DNA of 61,840 bases, filler included, from Stramenopiles sp. TOSAG23-3 (GCA_900128585.1; 13 parts of 13 records of this genome joined end to end with filler, not necessarily neighbours in it), one strand, 5' to 3'. Counted from the first letter of the whole stretch, positions 2,732-47,589 are shown. Notes: generated by a model not told the origin, from the letters alone. Translations and numbers: made by a program.

Positions 2732-3060
2732 AGTAGACCGTGTGTGGCATATTACAAGACGTACGCACATGCTAAATGACTGTTTACTCTCTCACTTTTT
2801 AATATCATATGATATCATTAGTTTTTTTTTCAATTATTCTTATATCTTAAAGTATGATATGCTATGATATCATAGGACTCTCATTTCAAATCAATTACTA
2901 TTTTCAGTTCCAACCTTATATCTTAAATATGTGGGTACGAAGTATTATTATACAGTGTTCTTATAAATCAATATTATAAACAAATTAACATTATATACAA
3001 CAAGTAGGGGGGAAGAGTATCCAATATTCTCCCCCCTTCGCGCGCGGTGTGCGCATTCTT

Positions 3061-4050
3061 CTAAATGATCGGTGCTGCGAAAAGATGAGAAATATATTTA
3101 GTGTTAGATGAAGCTTCAAATGCACAAAGGGGTTTTGAGGAGGAGAAGAAGTTCCTGTACAGAGGTCTGTATGCATCCATCAGACAAATGCCTCGTTTGT
3201 CTCTCATGACATGAACAACTGCTCGCATAACGCGAGCAGCCACTCGTCGGACTCGTCATCTATGTTTGGTCATCATCTGGGTACATACAGCACACGGGGA
3301 GGGCGGTGAGGGGCCAGGCGTGCTGCTGCTTGCAGCGCACTGGCAATGGTTCGTACGAAAAGCTCTTCTTCTTTGCAAGCCGCAATATCTCAGATAAAAA
3401 GATAACTTGTTTGTAGTTTCACGCCTCAAAAAGAGACTCAAAGGTGTCCTAAGATGATAATCCTCATTGAAATTGCGTTCCTGCACAAACCAAACACGTA
3501 GTGGGGGCACACTGAGCGGCCCACAACCAGCATTTTTCAGAAAGTCATAAAAATTGATAACTTGCGATCTCCCCACGGTTTAGTTGGACTGGGGCGGCAA
3601 ATGTTTAATCATTCTTTCATGTTTGCGAATAAATAAAGCCCCGCCAAAACAAGGAAAAGTGTTCCATCAAAGGAGAGCAAGAAGTTGTGTGTGTGTGCGG
3701 AGAAAAAACATCTAGGAGTTGGACAGTCATAAGGTCTCCAAAGTAGGTTTGCGCTCATTGTCAATAACTCGCACAATGTAGATAAATATGTATAATCATA
3801 CCGAACCAACGACTTGACGCTTTCTGCAAGATGAGAAAAGAAAGAGACGGTGTGTGTGTGGGGGGAATACGGGGAGTGGGCACGAACGTCTCGCGATCGT
3901 TTCCTATACTTACACGTTTACAAGCACCAAGACCCGTATGGGGCCAATGGCATATGGTACGCTGGAGGGAAGGCATGCTTCCCCCGACCAACAGGACGAC
4001 GACTCTCGGGCCGACCTTTGTTATTCGTCGTCCTACATACTTCCTGTTTT
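3061..4050 (-). other. Possible multi-exon gene or decayed pseudogene, product unknown
   Basis: Coding-like GC content with no long ORF. A canonical-looking minus-strand intron at 3824-3913 reads GTAAGT...pyrimidine tract...TTGCAG. ORFs 3256-3576 and 3061-3243 are in the same frame, separated by one TGA. Confidence 0.3.
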
Positions 4051-4787: not shown

Positions 4788-7700
4788 GAAAAGTCGATGA
4801 ATTCCAGGAACGCTTTTGGCCATGGAACGTCGACGGCAAAGCCCAAAGCGGCGTTGATTTGCATGAAACCAAAGAAGATCCTCAGGCGCCCAGAAAATTT
4901 TGAATACGGACCAATCTTGAACCCACCATCGGAGCCCTCAGAGGCGCCAGAGGCCTCCTCGACGACTCCTTCCACGTCAAGTTTTTCCCTGGACTTTCGG
5001 CGCATCTTTGCGATGGCACTCAGAACTGTCAAGGCCGTTCCAATGCGGATGGTCGCTTTCGGTGGTGGCGGGGCCTTTGCACGGTTCAGTAAATACGACA
5101 GTACACCTGAGTACATGATGCAAGCAATAAATATCATCCACCCGGTCCCGGACGTTCCCGTCCCATCTTCGCAAGGAGCGCACACACCTCCCATTTGCAC
5201 ATAGTTTTCAGCGCAGAGGGCACAGACCACGCCGGCGTTCCCTTTTGTGCACTGGTCGTCTGATGTCGTTGCAATTGCAGTACCAGCGCACGCGTCCGGT
5301 ACAGGGCAGGAATAAAAGGTTGGAGAATCCTGTGCAGACCGCCAGTACCCCTTCTGCGAAATGATGGTACCCAACAGTGTATTCACACGGGGGCATAGCC
5401 CGCCTTCCGGGCACGGTTTGCAATAGTCTTCCTTGCCAGTTGGGTCTGTATGATGGTAATAGGTTTGTCGGCACATGCACCCTGTTGCATTAGCGACACC
5501 GGTAGTTCCATTAGTGGTCGTTGACAAGGCGAATTCGGTGCACTTGGTGCACTGTGCCGGGGCAGTGCTCCCCGTAGCCTCGTTGTAAGTGTCAACAGGA
5601 CAAGGTAGGCACCTCGGCTGCCCTTTGACGTTTTGATAGGTGCCTGCGGCGCACGGTTCACAGTACAGATGTCCGCTTGTATCCGCAACCATGGCGGTTC
5701 CCAGGTCACACACTACACAAGTGTCATCGACACGTACCCTGCCTTGGTCGCAGATGCAGTCGCCGATAGAGGTGCTTCCTTCGTCCGTAGCTTTTGAATT
5801 CTCAGGACATTCCGTGTATGCAGTGCTCCCATTTGTGCTTACAAACGTATTACGCGGACACGGTCCGCACATTAAAATGCCAGGCACTGCTTTGAACTTC
5901 CCGGTGGCGCAATTGGTACAAGAGTAGCCTTGGGCCTCTTGGCCCGCCGGACAAGCAATCGGCATGCACTTGATGGTGTCTAAATCGTATTGCCAGGACG
6001 TCCCTGGTGGACAGATGGACGTGTCCGTCCCATCTATGGCAAGAATATCCGTTGGAATTTCCGTGGAAATATTCAAATATGTGTTTGTGTATTGAATCCC
6101 GGCATAAATCTGTGTCTTGGATAAATCGCCCAATTCCGATTTCTTGCAGCAATTTGGGAAAAGCTTCGAACATGCGTTCGGGTCCGAAAAAGGCTCTCTT
6201 GACAAAAGATCTCTGTTTTGAACAATTTTTGCCAATTCTGAACCGTTTACTTTTGCAACGACAGGTTGTTTGTTTTCGCCCCACAGCACGTCATATCCAT
6301 GGACATTTTCTATCCTTGTGTTGCGAAAAACTAACGGCAAGTACACATTAGAGGAGTCACATATATACTCGCCGCTCAGGGTAGAATAGATGTAATCTCT
6401 ACCAAATTGCCACTTTAACATGTCGTTGTAGTGACTGTAGACCAAGGCCTTTGTGTTCATGTTTACGAATTCACAATCGCTAAATGTCAGTGGCGAACCA
6501 CGAGTCACGATGACCGCATGGGTGCTGGATAAGTTTTGGAACGTCACGCCGTGAAATATTACTGGTGCTTGTATTGTGCCTTCCCTCGTGCTCAATATAT
6601 TTATCAGTGACACAGTTGTTGAACTACCATCAAAGACTAACATTTCAATATAAACAGGGGCTGTGCCTGTTCCATAAGCTGTGAGGCAAGGCACTTCATT
6701 CGACGAACAGCGTAACACTGAACGATGGGCCATGTAAGCAGTGCGTGTACGAAACACGACCTTTTGATTCTTCATTACAACGGCCAAGCCCGATACGACA
6801 AACGAACGGTCCGCTTTGACATAGAAGCGAAGGCGATCTATTGAGTTTTTCATCTCGGTTTCTAGATTGTTTGTGCGCCCAAGCGGAATTACTGCGATGC
6901 GGTTTTGATACCATGTATAGCTAGGATCGTAACCAGAAGACCCAGCGAACTGCTCTAAAGGAGCGGTAGAACTGGCCAAATCCATGGCTCCATCGCCGTT
7001 AAAGTCGGCAGCCACTACATAGGAAGCATACTGAGATGTGTCCGAAAGGATCACTTGAGCTCCGAATGTTCCTTTTCCGTCTACGTTTTCATACCAGGCA
7101 ATCTTATGGTCCTGTTCAGAAGCACTGGCGATATCCATATCCCCGTCTCCGTCTAAGTCCGCAACATATACGCTTTGTGGTTTTTCCACACTCGTCGAAA
7201 CGATCCGCTGCGTACCAAATGTACCCTTCCCATCTTTATTCTCGTACCATGCGATGTTGTTGCTGTACGGATAAGCACTTGCCAAGTCAATGTCCCCATC
7301 CCCGTCGATGTCAGCAGCAAAGATACTTCGGCCCCCCTCTGCAAAAATAGACACGTTGGTTTTTGAATCAAATGTCCCATTACCGTCTGTGTTTTCATAC
7401 CACAGAACTTCAGTGTCAGTGCCAACAACCAGGTCTACATCCTTATCCCCGTCTAGGTCGGCAGCAAAAACGCTCACGCCAGGAATGTCGGAAACGGTAT
7501 GCCTTATCGCAAAGGTGCCTTTACCGTCTGTATTTTCGTACCACGCAGTTTCTCCACTGACAAGGTTTTTAAAAGGCGCGATCGGGTTCGAAGAAGTGGC
7601 ACTAATACTAACAAAATCCATGTCTCCGTCCCCGTCGATATCGGCAGCAAAAACGCCCTGGACCGACCCGACCGGTTGTTTGATGTTTGGTTGGTTGATA

Positions 7701-9468
7701 TATTGGGGTTTAAATATCCCGTCGTCGTCAAATTTGTACCATATAACATCTTGGCTGAGTCCAAAAACCAAATCGATATCCCCGTCCCCATCAAAGTCAG
7801 CACCGTGTACACATGTAGTTTCCACGTCAACCCACCCCCCATTCCTTTCAATCATTCCATTTCTTTCGAATGAATGAAAACCAGGAAAACTAAAGACCCT
7901 CATCTTGCCATTAGCGCCACCATGAAACGTCCAATCTCCTGCCCAGTAGGTAGAACCAACAGCCAAATCCGGGTTGCCGTCCCCTTCAATGTCGGTCGCA
8001 AATAAACCATAGCCAACAGAACTACTCTCGATTTGCTGTGGAGTACCAAACTTTAGATCATTTAGAATCACTATTGGAAGTTCATACCATATAATTTTCA
8101 TCGTACTGGTACCGATGGCGAGATCCATATCCCCGTCTCCGTCGAAATCGGCAGCAATTACATTTTTAATGGACATACCAACTTCAGAGTTCGAAGTTGT
8201 GAGCAAGGACAATGGTCCAAACGTTCCCTTTCCGTCTGTATTTTCATACCATCCGATATTGTTTTGCCCCTTAGTACACGCAAAATCAATATCATTATCA
8301 CCGTCAAGGTCCGCAGCGAACACACTTGTTCGGCCGCTTGCTGAAATGATCTGCTCAGTTCCAAAGGTTCCATTTCCATCGGTGTTTTCATACCACGAAG
8401 AATCGCTCATGATATCCGCGTCCCCGTCCCCGTTGAGGTCGACAATTATCACATTGCTGGATCCCTTGTTTGAAACTACCCGTCCTTTGCCGAACGACCC
8501 CTTACCGTTTATGTTCTCGTGCCACAAAACTTTATTGTTTGTACCAATGGCCAAATCGACGTCTCCGTCCCCGTCGATGTCAGCAGCGTGCATGCTCGAG
8601 CCACCGAATGCAGACACATTCATTTGCGCCCAAACGGCCCCTTTGCCGTCAACATTTTCGTACCATGAAGTGCTTTTGTCAGTAGCAATTGCTAAATCTA
8701 TATCATCGTCACCATCAATATCAGCAGCAAATATTACAATATGTTGATTGCCGCCTATGATTTTCGTAACATTATTTTCCGCCCAACTCTTTCCTTTGCC
8801 ATCTTTATTTTCGTACCATACAACCTGACCATAAGTGTACGTACTGACGATATCAATGTCCCCATCTCCGTCTATGTCAGCGGAGATTGGGTCACCCATA
8901 GGCTGGTGTCCAACATACGGATCATTCCATAACCCCGTCCCCGTCAAAACACCACTCCTATGCACAACATGCACTGTCCAAGACGTACCTCTACCGTCTG
9001 TATTTTCATACCATGTAATTCCATTGTCTACCAAATCTGCATCTCCGTCCCCGTCAATGTCGGCAGCGAACGCCCCAGATGCAAACGTATCACTCTCATC
9101 AGAGACTATATGCAAGACAGAACCGCTCATTTCTTTATCATCGCCGCTGGCCATACAATACGATGGACCGCCAGAATTGCCCCGAACTATATCTTCTGCT
9201 TCAACCCCATGCCGGCCAGCAGGGCAATCTTCGCAACCATCAGTACCTGTACTCTCGTATTTTCCCGCCGGGCATAACTCTTCCACGCCCATTCGGCATA
9301 CCGCACCTGCGCGGCATAGGCTACATTCTAATCCTCCTGTAGGAGAATAGTACCCAACGGAGGGGCAATTTACACAAACGTGTGGGCTGGTTTGACCAGT
9401 CTGGTTCCCATATTTTCCAGCAGGGCACAATATTTTTGATGTAACGTTCGGACAGTATGATCCTTTTG
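4788..9468 (-). CDS. Large membrane protein (partial at both ends): Cys-rich GCC2/GCC3-type repeats, 14 FG-GAP/VCBS repeats, more Cys-rich repeats, then TM region
   Basis: 14 copies of D(I/L/F)xGDGDxD, mostly with WYENxDGxGxF linkers. CPAGKY / CAAGTYQ / CPVDTY Cys-rich repeats. GYWR...CP...C motif, then hydrophobic WMIFIACIMYSGVLSYLL and IFFGFMQI...VPWP segments. Confidence 0.85.
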
Positions 9469-12616: not shown

Positions 12617-14176
12617 CTATTTATGAACGACTGACTGGAATACTTCCACCATTTTTTCAAGAAAGGGAAGCTTTATTGATTTTTCTACTTCACATTTCCA
12701 TGTTTCTTCAGAAAGATCATGTAAATCTGTTTTGACAATCACATCATTGCAAAGTGCACGGTACATTTGATCCAAGTTCACTTTGTCCATGGATGCAATT
12801 TTCTTAATGCAGCTACATACGCCTTGTCTGACGATATTGATTCCTTTCTCTCCTACATCATACCCCGTATTTCGAGCAATAAAATCGCGAACACAAAGGA
12901 GCGAGCCATCTTCGTGATTAATCGCGCAGTTTCCTCGTTCTTTAGCATAGGCTAGTAGCTCTGGGATCTGAGCAACAATATGAGAAACCCCAGGTTGAAA
13001 ATGTGCAATTCGAATACAAGATTCTGCCAGTAAATCGCTGATTCCGTACGCTTCTTTCAATTCCTCTTTAAGCCACGCGTTAGCTTCTGGAAGTTTGTCA
13101 ACCTTTGCTGAATTATCTTTTCGGAATCCTAAACAGGCGGAAGCCCAAGCTCTTGCGCTTTTAATATAATTGCGGTACAGCCATGCCGTTTTATTCTGAC
13201 TTTTCAAATTAGCATCGTTTCCCCAAGCAACTTCGTCCTCAATATCATCCTCATACTGGGTTTGAAAAGTAGTCACCACCGAATCAATACCGATAAGCTG
13301 CCCATTTCGTCCTCCTCCACTGCAAAACAATAGATTTTCAGCATTGCCTACATTCCTGTGTAACGCTGGCACGCGATCGTTATTATTTATAAATACATCA
13401 AACGCAATTAATTCTCCGAGTTGGTGAAGCCGCTTGGCTCCCATATCAGTGCCAGGATGCAATTTCATTTCAGCTTTCTTCCTTGCCATTCCTTTCAATG
13501 ATTCTGCATTTTGAACCAGTTCGATTATTGAAATAAACTTTTTTTGTCTCCACGACCATAATTTCATTTGGACATCACAAACGAAATCGTAATTATCAGC
13601 TTGAACCAATTCAGAAAGGTTGCTAAAAATTAACCTCGTCTCTGCCGTCGTTGCGATCCGTTGCTTTGCAACCGGTATGCCCAAATGAACAGCAAGCTGC
13701 TCGGCGAACACTTCTCCGACTGGCTCTCCATCGCCAGCTTTCAAAACAAAACTTCCAGATTTTGTTTTGGCAAACAAGACACCCTTAGAACCGGTAGGAG
13801 ATTGGGCTACGCTGTACAATGTTTCCCACACGGGCAAATTCAAATCCCCAGGTATCCCTTCAAAAATAATTTCCTCAGTCTCTGTACTAACGCCTGAAAA
13901 TTTCTCCTTAAGTTTGCTTTCTCCAGCTTCTGTCAAAAACTCCCTTACGTACTTCGCAAGCAAACTTCGCGACAAACTATCTCCACAAGATTTCAGGTTA
14001 GAATTTTTTACTTTTTTTGAGGTCGTCAATGTTTCTAAGTATGCCCCGTCAACGCCCTGGGAGATAACGCCCTCTGCATATTCGCCGAGATGCTTGTCGT
14101 TTAGAATAGAAGCAACTTGTGTGACGGACAAAGAGGACAAGTAAGATCCCGCTTTTTCTGTCACAATTGACGCCAT
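12617..14176 (-). CDS. SAM-like domain plus actin-fragmin kinase (AFK)-type catalytic domain
   Basis: N-terminal LSVTQVASIL...LGEYAEGVISQGVDGAYL is SAM-like. GSKGVLF, FVLK, EVFAEQLA, LGELIAFDVFINNNDRVP, GNAENLL and GIDS match AFK catalytic motifs. First ATG is at 14176. Confidence 0.75.
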   Translation of the reverse strand: MASIVTEKAGSYLSSLSVTQVASILNDKHLGEYAEGVISQGVDGAYLETLTTSKKVKNSNLKSCGDSLSRSLLAKYVREFLTEAGESKLKEKFSGVSTETEEIIFEGIPGDLNLPVWETLYSVAQSPTGSKGVLFAKTKSGSFVLKAGDGEPVGEVFAEQLAVHLGIPVAKQRIATTAETRLIFSNLSELVQADNYDFVCDVQMKLWSWRQKKFISIIELVQNAESLKGMARKKAEMKLHPGTDMGAKRLHQLGELIAFDVFINNNDRVPALHRNVGNAENLLFCSGGGRNGQLIGIDSVVTTFQTQYEDDIEDEVAWGNDANLKSQNKTAWLYRNYIKSARAWASACLGFRKDNSAKVDKLPEANAWLKEELKEAYGISDLLAESCIRIAHFQPGVSHIVAQIPELLAYAKERGNCAINHEDGSLLCVRDFIARNTGYDVGEKGINIVRQGVCSCIKKIASMDKVNLDQMYRALCNDVIVKTDLHDLSEETWKCEVEKSIKLPFLEKMVEVFQSVVHK

Positions 14177-14347
14177 TGTTTTCAAAAATATATAATATAT
14201 CTACAAGTGTTTTCTTGGTAAAGAATGTCTTTTGTCTTTCAGTTCTTNNNNNNNNNNNNNNNNNNNNNNNNNNNNNNNNNNNNNNNNNNNNTTAATTAAT
14301 TAANNNNNNNNNNNNNNNNNNNNNNNNNNNNNNNNNNNNNNNNNNNN

Positions 14348-21012: not shown

Positions 21013-21260
21013 NNNNNNNNNNNNNNNNNNNNNNNNNNNNNNNNNNNNNNNNNNNNNNNNNNNNNNNNNNNNNNNNNNNNNNNNNNNNNNNNNNNNNNNN
21101 NNNNNNNNNNNNNNNNNNNNNNNNNNNNNNNNNNNNNNNNNNNNNNNNNNNNNNNNNNNNNNNNNNNNNNNNNNNNNNNNNNNNNNNNNNNNNNNNNNNN
21201 NNNNNNNNNNNNNNNNNNNNNNNNNNNNNNNNNNNNNNNNNNNNNNNNNNNNNNNNNNNN
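21013..21260. other. Internal scaffold gap (N-run with no linker)
   Basis: N-run following a G-run, lacking TTAATTAATTAA. Confidence 0.9.
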
Positions 21261-21261
21261 N

Positions 21262-42934: not shown

Positions 42935-45900
42935 TGGAAAGATTCAGCGCGTCAGTTTCAACGCGCCCATCGTGCAGCAGCACCAGCGCCTTAATGTCTG
43001 CCAGGATGCCAGCGATCCGCTCCGGGGGTTGATTTGCAGAGATGGGCACATAAGGGCACCCCGCTAACTGTGCTGCGAGGCATCCTACCACCTGCTGCCA
43101 GCCCTTCTTCATGTATACAGCGACAGGGCGCCCCGGCAGATTCCTTTTTGCGGACTTCTCTTTGTACAATCCGTCGGAATTTTCGGTTTCGACTATAGCT
43201 GCAGCGAACGATCGCGCCAGGCGCACAACCTTCTTAAATGTGAACGATTCACCTGTCGACCCGTCACACACCGCAGTTGCATCCGGCGTGGCCATGGCTT
43301 GCTTGAGAATGGCTTCATGCATGAGAGTAGGTTGCAGTGCAGGCCGCAGGGCTGCTTTGTTCAGGTCGTGCACCCGTTGTTTGGGTTCGGGTGGACGCAC
43401 GGGGCGAGATGCAAGAGCAAGTTGACTGTCAGTAGCAAGCTCCTCCAGCAGGTTGCTAAACGCATGAAACATCGTCTCTACAAGGCCTTCCGGAAACCGT
43501 TCGAGGTGAGCGTCCCAATTGAAGTAGAGCGATCCGTCCACGTCGTCGAACACTTGAACATCTATCCACACCTGTGGTGTCGTTAGAGCTCCGTGTTCCG
43601 GTGTCTTGCCGAACCAGGTGAAAGGATTGTCTAAATCGGCTGGGTGCTGGTTGAGTACGCTGGCAAACACAAACGGAGCGACGGCGCGATGCAGGGAGCC
43701 ATCACGGTTGTTCAGCCGGGACATTGTCTCCGTGCCGGATGTGCATACACTGTGATCCATTGCACTAAGTACCGTCTTGTGCAGGGTTTTTGCCAAAACG
43801 CGCAACGACGGAGCAGCTTTTTTAGAAGCATCAACGGGCACTAGCAACGTTGAGGAAAGGTTGCCGACTAGATTTCCAGCCTCGGCGTGCAGATCCGTGT
43901 CCCGTCCAAACAGAGCACAGTTCATCGTGAATTTCTTGCTAGAACTCCACGTCGCGAGAATGCTACAGTAACACGCAAACAACAACGACGACGGGGTCAG
44001 CCCTTCGGCACGGCAGAGGTTCATGATGCGCTTCCACTTGTCCTCACCAATGGAAGATGAGAGGCGCGATATGTCGCCATGCTCTGGCTCCGTGGCAAGT
44101 GGCAGCTGTGGGTGCGGGTGCAGGCCTCCGTCTTCCGGCTCTTGATCGCACAGCTTGGCCCAAAAGTTTTCCTCTTTTTGCTTTTGCACAACATCCTGTT
44201 GCTGTCGCTGCACCAACGCCACATACAACGGCATCGTCAGTGCCATGACAGGAAGCTTCGCTTCGGCATTGCTATACAGCGCCCAAAGTTCGTCCATCAG
44301 CACTGTCAGAGCCCTGGCATCAGCCACCAGAAGGTCAAAAAGGAAGAAGATGCGGAAGGCAGCATTTGCATCAATCCGCAGGGCTTCAATTTGGAAAGAA
44401 TTGGAGGAGCCCTCAAACTTGGACAGCAAAGCCTGTCGGTGTTCTCCTATGGCCTCGTCGGTTTCGAGTGCACTGTGAATCACCAGTTTAAACTTCCCCC
44501 CAGACTGCGGCGGCTCAATCTGCTGCTTTGGATCTCCCGGCAAGGCAAATGTGCGCAGAGCTCCGTGGCGGATCATCAGTTCGTTGACAGCCGCTTCGAA
44601 CCGCACTTTATCGAGCTCAGGCATAACAGTCTCCCATTCGATCCATGCTGGCTGAGGGACGTCACGTGCTCGTCCAGTCCAATACAGCAGCTGCATCGGT
44701 AGCAGGTCAAATTTAGCTTTCTCATCCACATTCTCTTGCTCCGCACCATGGCCGTCAGGAAGCTGTACATCGGTGGAGCCCCCAGTCGAAAGTCCACCGG
44801 AGATGAAGAATTTGGTGAGGGAAGCGAGGCTGTGGTCCGCCAAATCACCGAGCGGTACTCGGACACCTAGGACACTGTAGATTTTTTCCCGAAAGTACTT
44901 TAGGGAGAGTGAATCAAAGGACAGATTGCAGAGAGGGATCTCGTCGGACATATCCTCTCGGGGCAGACCCAGGATGGTTGCGGCCTCGCTCATTAGGGCC
45001 GGCATGAGGTATGCTAGGAGCACACTCTCCCATGACTCACGGTTGAGGGCCAAGGGAAGCTGGAGCAACGGCGGGTGGTCCTTCGCAGCCCTCGGCTTGG
45101 AGAGTGATGCAGGGAGGACACCAGTGGGTGACACAAAAGCATCCCAACACTTTCGAGCGTCGCCTAACTTGATCTTGGGCAACTGCAGCTTTTCCGCGAG
45201 CTTGATGCGGGCAGGCTTGCCCGTCATACCCTTAGGGATGTCGTTCATGGTCACCATCGTTTCTGGTAGCCACTGCTGAGCCACCCCTTTCTTCGAAGCA
45301 AACGAACGCAGTTGCACCAGCTCAAGTGTTTCACCCTTGTGCAAGACGACTGCCGCGCCCACGACTTCACCCAGTTGCTCGTGCGGGGCAGCAAAGCAGA
45401 TCATATTATCAATCGCAGCATGGGTCATCAGCACATCCTCAACCTCCATAGGGGAAATCTTTTCTCCGCCTCGATTGATGATCTCTTTGAATCGTCCTGA
45501 GATAACGAGATGCCCATTAGAATCGACGTACCCCTTGTCGCCGGTACACAGGAAGTTGTCCTTGGTGAAGGCCTGAATATTTGGATCAACTTTCATGTGG
45601 CTCTTGTGATACTCGTAGCCATGCGTCACGCACTCACCACGGACACAAATGTGGCCTTCCTCGTTCGGGCCACAGATCTCCAAGTTTTTGTTCTTCTCCG
45701 GGTCCTTCATCACCAAAATCTCCGGGCCACCCGAAAACCCAACGCTGCGGAGGTCCCGCCGCCCACCCCGCCGTGGGTTGCTTGCGATGGGCATAGACTC
45801 GGTCATGGCGTAGGTGCAGATCACCTGCAGCCCCAGTACGTTCTCCATTCGCTTGCCGACCGAGGGAAGGAGCGCGGCGGAGCAGTTCCTGGCGAACAGT

Positions 45901-47589
45901 AGGTGATGTTTTGGCGCGGCACCGCCGTTCCGAGACTGATGCTTCTCCGCAAAGTTCAGGATTTCTTGGTGCATTGTTGGGACGGCACTGTACCATGTTG
46001 GCGGGGGCGACTGCCGAAGTGCGTCGAAGAAGCCCGCACCGTCTGTGAAGCCTGTTGTCGCATAGACGGAAGCGCCAGATAGCGCTGTAACGAGCACGTT
46101 GACAGAAATTCCATGAATATGAAACAGCGGCATAATGTTGATGCAGACATCGTCAGGCGTTAGGCCGAGCGTCGACATTATGCACAGCCCGCCAGTGCTG
46201 ATGTTGCCGTGCGTCAGCGGCACAACTTTGGGCTTGTTCGTGGTTCCGCTGGTGTGAAGCACCAGAGCAACATCTTCGCGCTTGGGCCACACTCGCCCGG
46301 TGCTCAGCGGCAAAAGTTGCTTGGAGCCCTTCCGCCATTGCAAAGTGAACAGCCCGACATCATCCACGGAGGGGAACATCTCTATGATCGGCAAATTGCC
46401 GCAGGATGCCGCCACGGTCAGAATGTCGTCGCTGTCGGGCAAACCCGCAAACACCACCACAGCCGTGGCCGGAAGGTCCACAAACTCGAATTTCAGCGCG
46501 GCCCGCGTCAGTTTTGTGCTGAGGGGTGCATAGGTGCATTGAAGCGACATTCCCATAAAGCAGACCGCGGCCTCAGGCCCGTTGGGGATGACAACACAGA
46601 GTCGGTCGCCCTGCCCAATGCCAAAGTCGTGGAGATTGAGGTCTTCGCCGATGAACGACTTGAGCCGAGCATAGTCGAGCGGTCGGCGCCTGCTATTAAC
46701 CTCCCTCAAGAAAACCCGGTCGGTGTCAGGCAAGAGGTCGTAATGCGATTGCCAAGTTTGCTTCCATGCTTCATGCGCAGTCAGCTGATCCGACGGCACC
46801 GCCAACACTTTTGGCACTTTTCCCAGCGTATCGCCATCAGCGGCCCGGCCCTCGATGCCCTGTGGCACGGTCTCGCGCCGAGCCAGGTCTACTGCACGCT
46901 TTGTGATGCAGTCAACGACATGTTTGGCGTCCTCGGCAATACCGCACAGAATTGAGGATTTCCACTTGTACATCCAATGTAAGCTCAGGAAGAACAGGCC
47001 TGGATGGTTCGTGGCCGCACCACGTTCCTGGATTGGGTAGCCGCGGGCACCGTACAGATCCGACAAATCAACGAGCGCCTGGTAGTTGAGCTTGTACCCT
47101 GTGCACCAAATGATGGTGGTGATGCCCTCGCCCGTCAGCGACAGCTCCTGAATCGGGTCCGTCTCGCATTTGGGCAGTGGCACGTACGGCTCCAGCTCAA
47201 GGGGCTCCAGGTCCTGCAACTCCGGGTCATCGGCATGCTGCTGCACGTATTGCTCGATTTCCAGCTTCATGCGCATCACATTGGCCTCGATCTTCGTCAT
47301 GTTGAGGGGCAGCTTTGCGCCCTCGAGCTGAAGAATGTCACCGTCCTTCACGGCCATAGCCTTGCCCAGTAGTGTGAGGTCGTGCTTGTTGCAGAGCTCG
47401 CGGAGACGCACGTCGCGCTGCGGGCACTGGCTGGGATTTGGCCCAAACCTGCTGGCCTGCTGGGCTGCTGGCGACAGATCGGCTATCTTGGTGTCGTACT
47501 TGCCGGTCTTGTAGAGCCACCAATTGAAATCCTTGCCTCGTACCCTCCGCGGGACGCGCAGGGAACGTGAGCCGACACAAGCGAACACG
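42935..47589 (-). CDS. Multidomain NRPS (partial at both ends): FMO-like oxidoreductase / adenylation / carrier / heterocyclization (Cy) / adenylation
   Basis: FMO C-half ~46900-47589 (PRRVRGKD..WW, IIWCTGY, PGLFFL). A1 ~45170-46700 (LHTSGTT, YAMTE, TGD, GRFKEIINRGGEKI, PKG.TGK). T ~44810-45010 (LSFDSL). Cy ~43430-44720 (LLPMQLLYWTGR, RHGALR, DLLVADARA, PQLP, PFVFAS, TPQVWID). A2 begins ~43330 (LMHEAIL...TPDATAV...LAGCPYVPI...PPERI). Confidence 0.9.

What the first reader, a model, noticed from the sequence alone, without database searches (positions are those of the whole stretch)
42935..47589. Heterocycle-forming NRPS in a protist assembly: FMO-A-T-Cy-A in one open reading frame
Seen: one uninterrupted frame of about 1550 codons fills the contig. 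It carries a flavoprotein half, a stand-alone-type acyl-AMP ligase, a carrier domain with the phosphopantetheine Ser (FDSL), a condensation domain with heterocyclization signatures (DLLVADARA = DxxxxD rather than HHxxxD; LLPMQLLYWTGR; TPQVWID), and the start of an NRPS-type A domain. Established: Cy domains cyclise Cys/Ser/Thr into thiazoline/oxazoline rings, as in pyochelin, yersiniabactin and epothilone, and are mainly bacterial. Inference: this encodes an uncharacterised small-acyl-capped azoline metabolite, possibly a metallophore or defence compound, in a flagellated microbial eukaryote. The domain order is not one I recognise from characterised pathways.
Basis: partly seen in the sequence, partly recalled or inferred. 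Interest (0 to 1): 0.85.

Follow-up and report, generated by a model that had tools for sequence, protein, structure and literature searches.

The report
Thiazoline-forming peptide synthetase in marine protist
This contig is the middle part of a very large single-gene enzyme, apparently native to tiny marine flagellates, that should join a small acid to cysteine and close a thiazoline ring, a chemistry so far described essentially only from bacteria.

Summary
Contig 42935-47589 is one open frame of 1551 codons on the minus strand. It reads: rest of a flavin monooxygenase, an acyl-CoA-ligase-type A domain, a carrier, a heterocyclization (Cy) domain, then the start of an NRPS A domain.

It is residues 528-2078 of a 3360-residue protein found whole in a metagenome, with 1 mismatch in 1551. 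The full order is P-loop kinase-like, FMO, A1, T1, Cy, A2, T2, TE, FIST. A2 carries the cysteine-type code DLYNLSLIWK. A1 is closest to oxalyl-CoA synthetases, but one oxalate-specific residue, His319, is Pro.

Several results favour a eukaryotic origin over a bacterial contaminant:
- A 56-62% identical relative on a metagenome contig is split by five introns, 4 GT-AG and 1 GC-AG.
- 81% and 65% relatives carry EukProt Picozoa labels.
- The stretch occurs in oligo-dT and polyA RNA libraries.
- Codon usage fits the eukaryotic neighbour contigs.
- Pattern scans of prokaryote and viral collections found no relative.

The likely product is a 2-substituted thiazoline-4-carboxylate. The starter acid and the biological role are unknown. 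My literature searches found no description of this architecture.

The parts
42936..47588 (-). Open reading frame of 1551 codons, cut at both contig ends; equals residues 528-2078 of the 3360-residue protein P0242
   Evidence: 1 mismatch in 1551
46779..47588 (-). Residues 1-270: C-terminal remainder of a class B flavin monooxygenase domain (contains CTGY at 162-165); boundary approximate
   Evidence: No hit of its own. Assigned through P0242/P0005, whose Pyr_redox_3/FMO-like match and PDB FMO hits (4usq 1.7e-16) end where the window begins. The AlphaFold model is poor here.
45183..46697 (-). A1: ANL-superfamily acyl-activating (loading) domain, residues 298-802, closest to oxalyl-CoA synthetases
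   Evidence: Pfam AMP-binding 2e-60. PDB 5ie0 7.8e-68, 6qjz, 8aff. NCBIfam FadD7 264.5 bits, below its cut-off of 650.
45786..45812 (-). YAMTESMPI: acyl-pocket segment of A1. Ala-Met are kept; the position of AtAAE3 His319 is Pro
   Evidence: Alignment to 5ie0, read against passages of PMC8905533; coordinates
44811..44996 (-). T1 carrier domain, residues 865-926; phosphopantetheine Ser in FDSL (891-894, window 44907-44918)
   Evidence: Pfam PP-binding 27 bits against cut-off 20.8
43410..44717 (-). Cy (heterocyclization) domain, residues 958-1393
44319..44336 (-). DLLVAD = the DxxxxD motif of Cy domains
   Evidence: Aligned with EpoB DLINVD, BmdB DALLMD and PchE DLLAAD; coordinates
43554..43580 (-). 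TPQVWIDVQ: latch segment with the dyad Asp and the helper Gln. The dyad Thr position (VFAS, window 43659-43670) is Ala
42936..43304 (-). First about 123 residues of A2, an NRPS amino-acid adenylation domain, cut before its specificity residues
   Evidence: Second AMP-binding stretch; NCBIfam NRPS match 990-1543. In P0242 the domain continues to about residue 2480 with the code DLYNLSLIWK.

Best explanation
The contig is the middle 46% of a single intron-less gene for a 3360-residue megasynthase of a small marine flagellated eukaryote. The domain order is P-loop (PanK/glycerate-kinase-like) domain, class B flavin monooxygenase, A1, T1, Cy, A2, T2, TE, FIST.

Proposed mechanism:
1. A1, an ANL ligase derived from the oxalyl-CoA-synthetase clade, adenylates a very small carboxylic acid (C2-C3; oxalate or a near analogue) and loads it on T1. 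The domain assignment is shown; the substrate is inferred.
2. A2 loads L-cysteine on T2. This is inferred from the specificity code in the full-length protein.
3. Cy condenses the acyl group onto the Cys amine and cyclodehydrates the product to a 2-substituted thiazoline-4-carbonyl thioester. The domain class is shown; activity is inferred.
4. TE releases the free acid (inferred).

The FMO probably oxidises the starter acid or the ring. The kinase-like and FIST domains have no assigned step.

The gene family is native to eukaryotes (Picozoa-labelled and unnamed picoplankton lineages). It branches apart from all bacterial Cy domains sampled.
For: Architecture:
- Domain matches.
- Identity with full-length P0242: 1 mismatch in 1551.
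- A EukProt gene model, P0282 (3362 aa), is 99.7% identical to P0242.

Cy class:
- The 8 best PDB matches are Cy chains, and the DxxxxD motifs align.
- 216 of 241 related domain matches have DxxxxD.
- 237 of 241 have Asp at the dyad Asp column, as does ours.

Cysteine:
- The code DLYNLSLIWK is shared letter for letter with bacterial Cy-module A domains.
- Relatives that their sources name pyochelin synthetase, yersiniabactin synthetase or L-cysteine ligase have the same or a 1-2-letter variant.
- Relatives named MbtB or mycobactin differ.

A1:
- 7.8e-68 to AtAAE3.
- Of the 8 pocket residues, 6 are identical and 1 is conservative.

Eukaryotic origin:
- L001 (56-62% identical) has five interruptions of 82-189 nt, 4 GT-AG and 1 GC-AG. 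Removing them restores one frame aligned to P0242.
- P0308 (80.8% identical over 3343 residues) and P0300 (65%) are labelled Picozoa sp. by EukProt, on contigs of 15 and 37 kb.
- Pieces at >= 99% identity lie in an oligo-dT library (6 of 7 pieces) and a polyA library (6 of 6).
- The other 12 contigs of the window carry eukaryotic genes such as CFAP52, CFAP58, PX, chromo and actin-fragmin kinase, mostly as long intron-less ORFs.
- Codon-usage correlation with those ORFs is r = 0.915, the third highest of 16.
- No relative was found in prokaryote genome contigs or in viral contigs.
- The family forms its own clade, with support 0.999 for 8 members and 1.0 for 11.
Against: - The contig holds nothing but this ORF: no host flank, intron, UTR or polyA site. 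Linkage to the host is therefore indirect.
- Codon usage is compatible but not discriminating. After removing base composition the correlation is 0.554, ninth of 16, with visible differences: AGA 0.00 against 0.10, TTG 0.14 against 0.29.
- RNA libraries can contain DNA. The control of laying a silent stretch could not be run because read laying is capped at one call.
- The EukProt labels come from single-cell co-assemblies, which can carry contaminants.
- The window's CFAP52 is only 48% identical to a COSAG05-labelled one. The window's organism is therefore not shown to be a picozoan.
- The putative catalytic dyad Thr is Ala (VFAS). PchE-Cy1 shows the same in the alignment, and Ala stands there in 53 of 241 related domains.
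- The A1 residue matching AtAAE3 His319 is Pro. That His contacts oxalate and is conserved only in oxalyl-CoA synthetases (passages of PMC8905533). Oxalate is thus doubtful.
- A2's specificity residues lie outside the window.
- The FMO remainder has no hit of its own. The only model is poor, with mean pLDDT 52.5.
- The nearest labelled Atlas clusters are mostly bacterial (a lead only).
Confidence: 0.72

Rival explanations
1. The contig comes from a bacterial contaminant, symbiont or prey co-sequenced with the protist. It would then be an ordinary bacterial siderophore-type NRPS.
For: - Cy domains are known essentially from bacteria (my own knowledge).
- All named relatives are bacterial, at 25-31% identity.
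- One source's automatic name for P0242 is 'pyochelin synthetase'.
- The contig has no intron and no host flank.
- Codon usage at 56% GC is not discriminating.
Against: - A relative has five spliceosomal-type introns.
- Full-length relatives are labelled as eukaryote gene models.
- Near-identical pieces lie in oligo-dT and polyA libraries.
- No relative was found among 33 pattern matches in one genome for each of 185,579 prokaryote species.
- No named bacterial protein exceeds 31% identity.
- The clade is separate from all 229 other Cy domains in the tree.
Confidence: 0.08
2. The gene is eukaryotic, but the Cy domain only condenses or is inactive for ring closure. The product would then be a linear N-acyl-cysteine, or the enzyme would have another role.
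For: - The Thr of the putative Asp-Thr dyad is Ala. Mutations of dyad residues severely affect cyclodehydration, according to passages of PMC9547227.
Against: - PchE-Cy1, from the synthetase of the thiazoline compound dihydroaeruginoic acid, also shows Ala-Ser at this place in the alignment.
- Ala stands at this position in 53 of 241 related Cy domains.
- The dyad Asp, the helper Gln and DxxxxD are all present and conserved across the family at 50-100% identity.
Confidence: 0.1
3. The gene belongs to a giant virus or another mobile element that infects marine protists, not to the nuclear genome.
For: - Giant-virus transcripts are polyadenylated and their DNA turns up in single-cell assemblies (my own knowledge).
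- The contig is all coding.
Against: - The IMG/VR scan gave 1 pattern match and no relative.
- The relative L001 has introns with GTAAGG and GTGAGT donor sites.
- Codon usage matches the host contigs.
- Relatives at 50-81% identity track several distinct lineages.
Confidence: 0.03

Closest known systems
PchD + PchE (dihydroaeruginoic acid synthetase, pyochelin pathway; PDB 7emy)
   Same: The logic is the same. An ANL ligase loads an acid starter on a carrier, a Cy domain joins it to Cys loaded by a DLYN.S.IWK-type A domain, and a 2-substituted thiazoline-4-carboxylate results. PchE matches residues 865-1525 at E 3.6e-37. Its Cy1 shares the Ala-Ser at the dyad Thr place.
   Different: - Here the starter ligase is fused in cis and belongs to the oxalyl-CoA-synthetase clade, not the salicylate-AMP ligases (5ie0 6.5e-67 against PchD 7tyb 1.3e-22).
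- TE, FMO, a kinase-like domain and FIST sit in the same polypeptide.
- Identity to named bacterial relatives is only 25-31%.
- The host appears to be eukaryotic.
BmdB (bacillamide) and EpoB Cy modules (PDB 7ly4/5t3e, 5t7z)
   Same: These are the best structural-sequence matches of the Cy domain (EpoB 1e-36, BmdB 2.6e-30). Each is a single Cy-A-T module that makes a thiazoline from Cys and a small acyl or aminoacyl donor.
   Different: By my own knowledge, those modules carry an FMN-dependent Ox domain that turns thiazoline into thiazole. Among this query's relatives the nitroreductase-type family PF00881 is on record only for more distant ones such as P0010. This protein instead has an N-terminal class B FMO.
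Oxalyl-CoA synthetases AAE3 / Pcs60 / LsOCS (PDB 5ie0, 8aff, 6qjz)
   Same: These are the closest solved relatives of A1 (7.8e-68, 8.7e-67, 1.6e-67). Pocket residues His216, Cys288, Ser289, Ala313, Met314 and Lys500 are identical, and Val215 is Ile.
   Different: - His319, one of the two residues said to be conserved only in oxalyl-CoA synthetases, is Pro.
- The acceptor is a fused carrier domain rather than free CoA (inference from the architecture).
Small 'type II' class B flavin monooxygenases (SMFMO 4a9w, Cellvibrio FMO 4usq) and FMO/BVMO domains embedded in assembly lines (8odw)
   Same: The N-terminal half of the FMO domain of relative P0005 matches them at 1.7e-16 to 2.3e-8. Foldseek on the low-confidence model also ranks them high.
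   Different: The domain is longer (about 460 residues). Its C-terminal half, the part inside the window, has no detectable sequence match. Its substrate is unknown.

Membership tests
NRPS heterocyclization (Cy) domain | DxxxxD in place of the HHxxxDG of ordinary C domains | tested here: met
   DLLVAD at residues 1085-1090 aligns with the DxxxxD of EpoB, BmdB and PchE. 216 of 241 related domain matches have DxxxxD.
NRPS heterocyclization (Cy) domain | Closer in sequence to proven Cy domains than to LCL/DCL-type C domains | tested here: met
   8 Cy chains at E 1e-36 to 2e-24, against 3 ordinary C domains at 2.5e-6 to 6.4e-4
NRPS heterocyclization (Cy) domain | Putative catalytic Asp-Thr dyad plus helper Gln (passages of PMC9547227) | tested here: inconclusive
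   Asp and Gln are present (TPQVWIDVQ). Thr is Ala (VFAS), as in PchE-Cy1. At the two columns, TS occurs in 170, AC in 24 and AS in 18 of 241 related domains.
NRPS heterocyclization (Cy) domain | The downstream A domain activates Cys, Ser or Thr | tested here: met
   Not readable in the window, where A2 is cut. In the 99.9% identical P0242 the ten code positions read DLYNLSLIWK. The positions were placed from my recollection of the PheA numbering; comparison with named relatives is.
Oxalyl-CoA synthetase (AAE3/Pcs60) | Ser289 and His319 (AtAAE3 numbering), which bind oxalate and are conserved only in this subfamily (passages of PMC8905533) | tested here: not met
   Ser is kept (RNCSAA). His319 is Pro (YAMTESMPI against YAMTEATHL). 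A1 is therefore filed as a relative, not a member.
FadD7-family fatty acid-CoA ligase (NCBIfam NF004511) | Score above the curated cut-off | tested here: not met
   264.5 bits against a cut-off of 650
Carrier (PP-binding) domain | Pfam score above the gathering cut-off and a Ser in the (F/G)DS(L/I) motif | tested here: met
   27 bits against 20.8; FDSL at 891-894. Modification by a PPTase is not testable here.
Class B flavin monooxygenase | Pfam FMO-like/Pyr_redox_3 match and two dinucleotide-binding GxGxxG motifs | tested here: inconclusive
   Met in the full-length P0242: matches at 341-537, and GAGQAG and GTGQSG can be read. Both motifs lie upstream of the window, and the window's own 270 residues have no match.
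Pyochelin synthetase PchE (the automatic name given to P0242 by one source) | An aryl carrier loaded with salicylate by a separate PchD | tested here: not met
   The starter ligase is fused and of the oxalyl-CoA-synthetase type (5ie0 6.5e-67 against PchD 7tyb 1.3e-22). The name is a resemblance only.

The most novel reading that the evidence does not exclude
This would be the first Cy-type (ring-closing) NRPS family native to eukaryotes. It is a self-contained 10-kb megasynthase conserved at 50-81% identity across several lineages of uncultured marine picoflagellates, including ones labelled Picozoa, and it is widespread in ocean metagenomes. It would make a new small thiazoline dicarboxylate or keto-acid metabolite, for example a dipicolinate-like metal chelator or a signal. 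Output would be tuned by fused kinase-like, flavin monooxygenase and FIST sensor-type domains, a domain combination not described for any assembly line.
Probability: 0.35. Interest if true: 0.8.

Novelty: new variant of a known kind. Interest (0 to 1): 0.64.

Why it matters
As far as I know, and as far as my searches reached, Cy-domain NRPSs are a bacterial speciality (siderophores such as pyochelin and yersiniabactin, epothilone, bacillamide).

A conserved, expressed and apparently nuclear family in uncultured marine picoeukaryotes would show three things:
- This ring-forming chemistry has been taken up by eukaryotic plankton and rebuilt into a one-gene pathway.
- An unknown small sulfur heterocycle is made by an abundant but barely studied group.
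- The family is a compact target, one ORF without introns in this organism, for heterologous expression.

The fused kinase-like, FMO and FIST domains are unexplained and could reveal new ways of feeding or regulating an assembly line.

Tried and rejected
- The genome search on the window's own genome: none is held.
The single-protein scan first met a busy machine, then gave one locus, L001.
- Protein Atlas on the whole fragment and on the first 280 residues: only generic A-T-C clusters and unnamed fragment clusters. One cluster had FMO-like in 14% of its members. Nothing decisive.
- PDB sequence search with the window's first 280 residues: nothing (best E 0.38).
- AlphaFold model of relative P0005 (kinase-like + FMO + start of A1) from an 11-row alignment: mean pLDDT 52.5, and under 50 for 575 of 1199 residues, including most of the stretch that corresponds to the window's N-terminus. 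Foldseek on it ranks class B FMOs (TM by target 0.30-0.36) and type I pantothenate kinases (0.53-0.62). I use these as weak hints only.
- ORFs downstream of the gene on L001: no Pfam family in 3 of 3 tested.
- Host lineage from CFAP52: the best named relative is 48% identical (Hondaea), and many eukaryotes are equally distant, so the lineage is not resolved.
- Viral origin: no relative in IMG/VR.
- Parts of the stretch without cover in the RNA contigs carry no meaning.
- Oxalate as the certain starter acid: rejected because of His319 to Pro.
Full report
**What the window is.** The 61,840-base window is 13 contigs of about 4.7 kb, joined by spacers of N44-TTAATTAATTAA-N44. The finding's coordinates, 42935-47589, are exactly one contig.

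**The observation.** On the minus strand, 42936-47588 is a frame of 1551 codons with no stop, cut at both ends. The next-longest open stretch on this contig is 263 codons. With this base composition the chance of 1551 stop-free codons is about 1.5e-26.

Pfam finds:
- AMP-binding (319-658, 2e-60) with AMP-binding_C (715-791).
- PP-binding (865-926).
- Condensation (989-1393, 6.8e-23).
- A second AMP-binding stretch at the end.

An NCBIfam NRPS model covers 990-1543. The 'flavoprotein half' (residues 1-270) is the one element that cannot be seen in the window alone: it has no Pfam hit and no PDB sequence hit (best E 0.38).

**The whole gene.** A search among longer proteins found P0242, 3360 residues, from a metagenome contig of 10.9 kb. 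The window's protein equals its residues 528-2078 with 1 mismatch in 1551. A EukProt gene model, P0282 (3362 residues), is 99.7% identical to P0242.

Pfam on P0242 gives this order:

| Domain | Residues |
|---|---|
| PRK/uridine-kinase-like P-loop domain (E 3e-6) | 108-309 |
| Pyr_redox_3 / FMO-like | 341-537 |
| A1 | about 845-1318 (read from the window's Pfam matches, and the 527-residue offset) |
| T1 | about 1392-1453 (same basis) |
| Cy | 1516-1920 |
| A2 | 1956-2339 |
| T2 | 2515-2579 |
| Thioesterase | from 2607 |
| FIST_N | 2958-3154 |
| FIST_C | 3198-3319 |

The window begins 10 residues before the end of the FMO-like match. Its first 270 residues are therefore the unmatched remainder of that domain.

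In relative P0005 the N-terminal half of the FMO matches class B monooxygenases: 4usq at 1.7e-16, and also SMFMO, ancestral FMOs and PAMO. An AlphaFold model of P0005 was too poor to prove the fold of the C-terminal half (mean pLDDT 52.5). Foldseek on it still ranks class B FMOs and type I pantothenate kinases at the top. By sequence, the N-terminal domain weakly matches D-glycerate 3-kinase (7xpc, 2.8e-4), uridine-cytidine kinase and pantothenate kinase.

**Cy domain.** Of the 11 PDB sequences matched by the domain at E <= 0.001, the 8 best are Cy-domain chains: EpoB 1e-36, BmdB, PchE, Irp2/HMWP2 and FmoA3, down to 2e-24. The 3 ordinary C domains score 2.5e-6 to 6.4e-4. DLLVAD aligns with the DxxxxD of EpoB, BmdB and PchE.

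Passages of PMC9547227 describe a putative catalytic Asp-Thr dyad and a helper Gln. Here TPQVWIDVQ supplies the Asp and the Gln. The Thr position is Ala (VFAS), as in PchE-Cy1 in the alignment.

Among 241 related Cy-domain matches collected from all hits:
- 216 have DxxxxD.
- 237 have Asp at the dyad column.
- The Thr-Ser pair reads TS in 170, AC in 24 and AS in 18.

**A domains.** A1's best solved relatives are oxalyl-CoA synthetases: 5ie0 at 7.8e-68, 6qjz and 8aff. Malonyl-CoA synthetases follow. No NCBIfam equivalog cut-off is reached; FadD7 scores 264.5 against 650.

Passages of PMC8905533 list the AtAAE3 oxalate pocket: Val215-His216, Cys288-Ser289, Ala313-Met314, His319 and Lys500. [quoted passage not shown] In the alignment ours reads Ile-His, Cys-Ser, Ala-Met, Pro and Lys. 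The pocket is that of a very small acid, but one oxalate-specific contact is lost. This segment (SMPIA) is the consensus of the family.

A2 is cut in the window before its specificity residues. In P0242 the ten code positions read DLYNLSLIWK; I placed the positions from my recollection of the PheA numbering. In one search:
- The same letters recur in many bacterial Cy-module A domains, for example P0040, which a source names yersiniabactin NRPS.
- P0105 (pyochelin synthetase) has DLYNMSLIWK.
- P0258 (L-cysteine ligase) has DLYNMSMIWK.
- Relatives named MbtB or mycobactin read D..(N/H).GL.HK.

Family members P0243 and P0245 share our code. P0244, P0003 and P0246 differ by one letter.

**Whose gene is it?**

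Evidence for a eukaryote:

1. The other 12 contigs carry eukaryotic genes. These include CFAP58, CFAP52, PX, chromo, actin-fragmin kinase, a MetRS with a tRNA-binding domain, and ankyrin. Most are long uninterrupted ORFs, so an intron-less 10-kb gene fits the host.
2. Codon usage of the NRPS correlates with the pooled other ORFs at r = 0.915, the third highest of 16. After removing position-specific base composition r is 0.554, ninth of 16 and within the host range of 0.33-0.78.
3. The one relative found in JGI metagenome contigs, L001, was 1 of 48 pattern matches and is 56-62% identical. It is interrupted five times, at 393-501, 2583-2771, 5191-5272, 5909-6002 and 6344-6485. The interruptions are 82-189 nt long; four are GT-AG (donors include GTAAGG and GTGAGT) and one is GC-AG. 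The frame changes across four of them, and the one examined in detail has stops in all three frames. Removing them restores one frame aligned to P0242, including the TE and FIST parts.
4. EukProt labels two cluster members as Picozoa sp. P0308 (3369 residues) is 80.8% identical over 3343 residues and sits on a 15-kb contig. P0300 belongs to the 65% lineage and sits on a 37-kb contig.
5. The stretch is held by 20 of 24 listed public runs from 13 studies, almost all marine or seawater metagenomes. Laid on it were pieces at >= 99% identity from:
   - an oligo-dT library (6 of 7 pieces, 12 of 30 bins);
   - a polyA metatranscriptome (6 of 6 pieces, 9 of 30 bins);
   - an rRNA-depleted library (7 of 8 pieces, 13 of 30 bins).

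   No joints were seen.
6. Pattern scans found no relative in one genome for each of 185,579 prokaryote species (33 pattern matches, none confirmed) or in IMG/VR. No named bacterial protein exceeds 31% identity.
7. In a tree of 240 Cy domains the core family of 8 sequences is a clade (support 0.999). With P0007, P0008 and P0246 it forms a clade of 11 (support 1.0). No bacterial sister is resolved (0.27).

Evidence against, or limits on the above:
- The contig has no flank.
- Codon usage does not discriminate strongly.
- RNA libraries can hold DNA, and the silent-stretch control could not be run because read laying is capped at one call.
- Labels from single-cell co-assemblies can be wrong.
- The window's CFAP52 is only 48% identical to its best named relatives, including a COSAG05-labelled one. 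I therefore do not name the window's organism.

**Mechanism.** What is shown is the domain classes and their order. The rest is inferred:
1. A1 loads a C2-C3 acid on T1.
2. A2 loads Cys on T2.
3. Cy condenses and cyclodehydrates.
4. TE (GWSMGG is present) hydrolyses the product to a 2-substituted thiazoline-4-carboxylic acid.

The FMO may prepare the starter acid or oxidise the ring. The kinase-like and FIST domains have no assigned step. I recall that the bacterial NO sensor NosP is a FIST-domain haem protein; I saw only a search listing for this.

**Comparison and novelty.** In logic the enzyme is a fused, self-contained analogue of PchD+PchE+TE, with a small-acid starter. It is not a pyochelin synthetase, despite one source's automatic name.

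Paper searches found no report of this architecture:
- Searches for a Cy-type NRPS in protists or algae returned nothing relevant.
- A search for a FIST-NRPS fusion found 0 papers.
- Searches for an NRPS in Picozoa found 1 review that holds both words, listing only, and 0 papers.
- Passages of PMC6361889 report only LCL-type C domains in Symbiodiniaceae.

The library covers open-access papers and bioRxiv only, and supplements were closed.

**Verdict.** I rate it a new variant of a known kind.

Noticed in passing
outside the window: P0242 residues 2958-3319 (also P0003, P0245, P0246, and L001 about 5260-7202): FIST_N and FIST_C domains are fused after the thioesterase of the full-length synthetase, and the fusion is kept in relatives down to 38% identity. 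A search for 'FIST domain' together with 'nonribosomal peptide' found 0 papers.
   Followed up: partly
outside the window: P0242 residues 1-330 (P0005 1-345): An N-terminal P-loop domain with weak matches to D-glycerate 3-kinase (7xpc, 2.8e-4), uridine-cytidine kinase and pantothenate kinase. It is the best-modelled part of the AlphaFold model, and Foldseek gives type I PanK at TM 0.53-0.62. Its role in an assembly line is unexplained.
   Followed up: partly
window 4790-9466 (-): A second contig-filling open frame of 1559 codons, with 10 FG-GAP-like repeats and an Ephrin_rec_like domain. Its codon usage fits the other ORFs poorly (r = 0.56).
   Followed up: no
window 12617-14200 (-): An ORF with an actin-fragmin kinase catalytic domain has the most deviant codon usage of the 16 ORFs (GC3 0.37, r = 0.33). 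This may reflect heterogeneous composition, or a second organism in the assembly.
   Followed up: no
window 42765-42830: A (GAAA)n microsatellite at the end of the preceding contig. The contigs show GC-rich ORFs and AT-rich spacers.
   Followed up: no
window 21013-21261: A run of 249 N inside one contig, which is a scaffold gap and not a spacer.
   Followed up: no
L001 717-1064: The intron-bearing relative has an in-frame insertion of about 116 codons inside the Cy domain relative to the window's protein. The frame stays open there, so it is not an intron.
   Followed up: partly
P0002 and P0300 C-termini: Both proteins of the 65% lineage stop a few residues after the A2 motif SGSTG.PKG and diverge there from P0242. 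This would fit an ORF call that runs into an intron.
   Followed up: no
P0014 (853 aa, metagenome): A protein 41% identical to the A1-T1 part is fused to ankyrin repeats instead of a Cy module. The A1-type loader therefore occurs in other, eukaryote-looking architectures.
   Followed up: no
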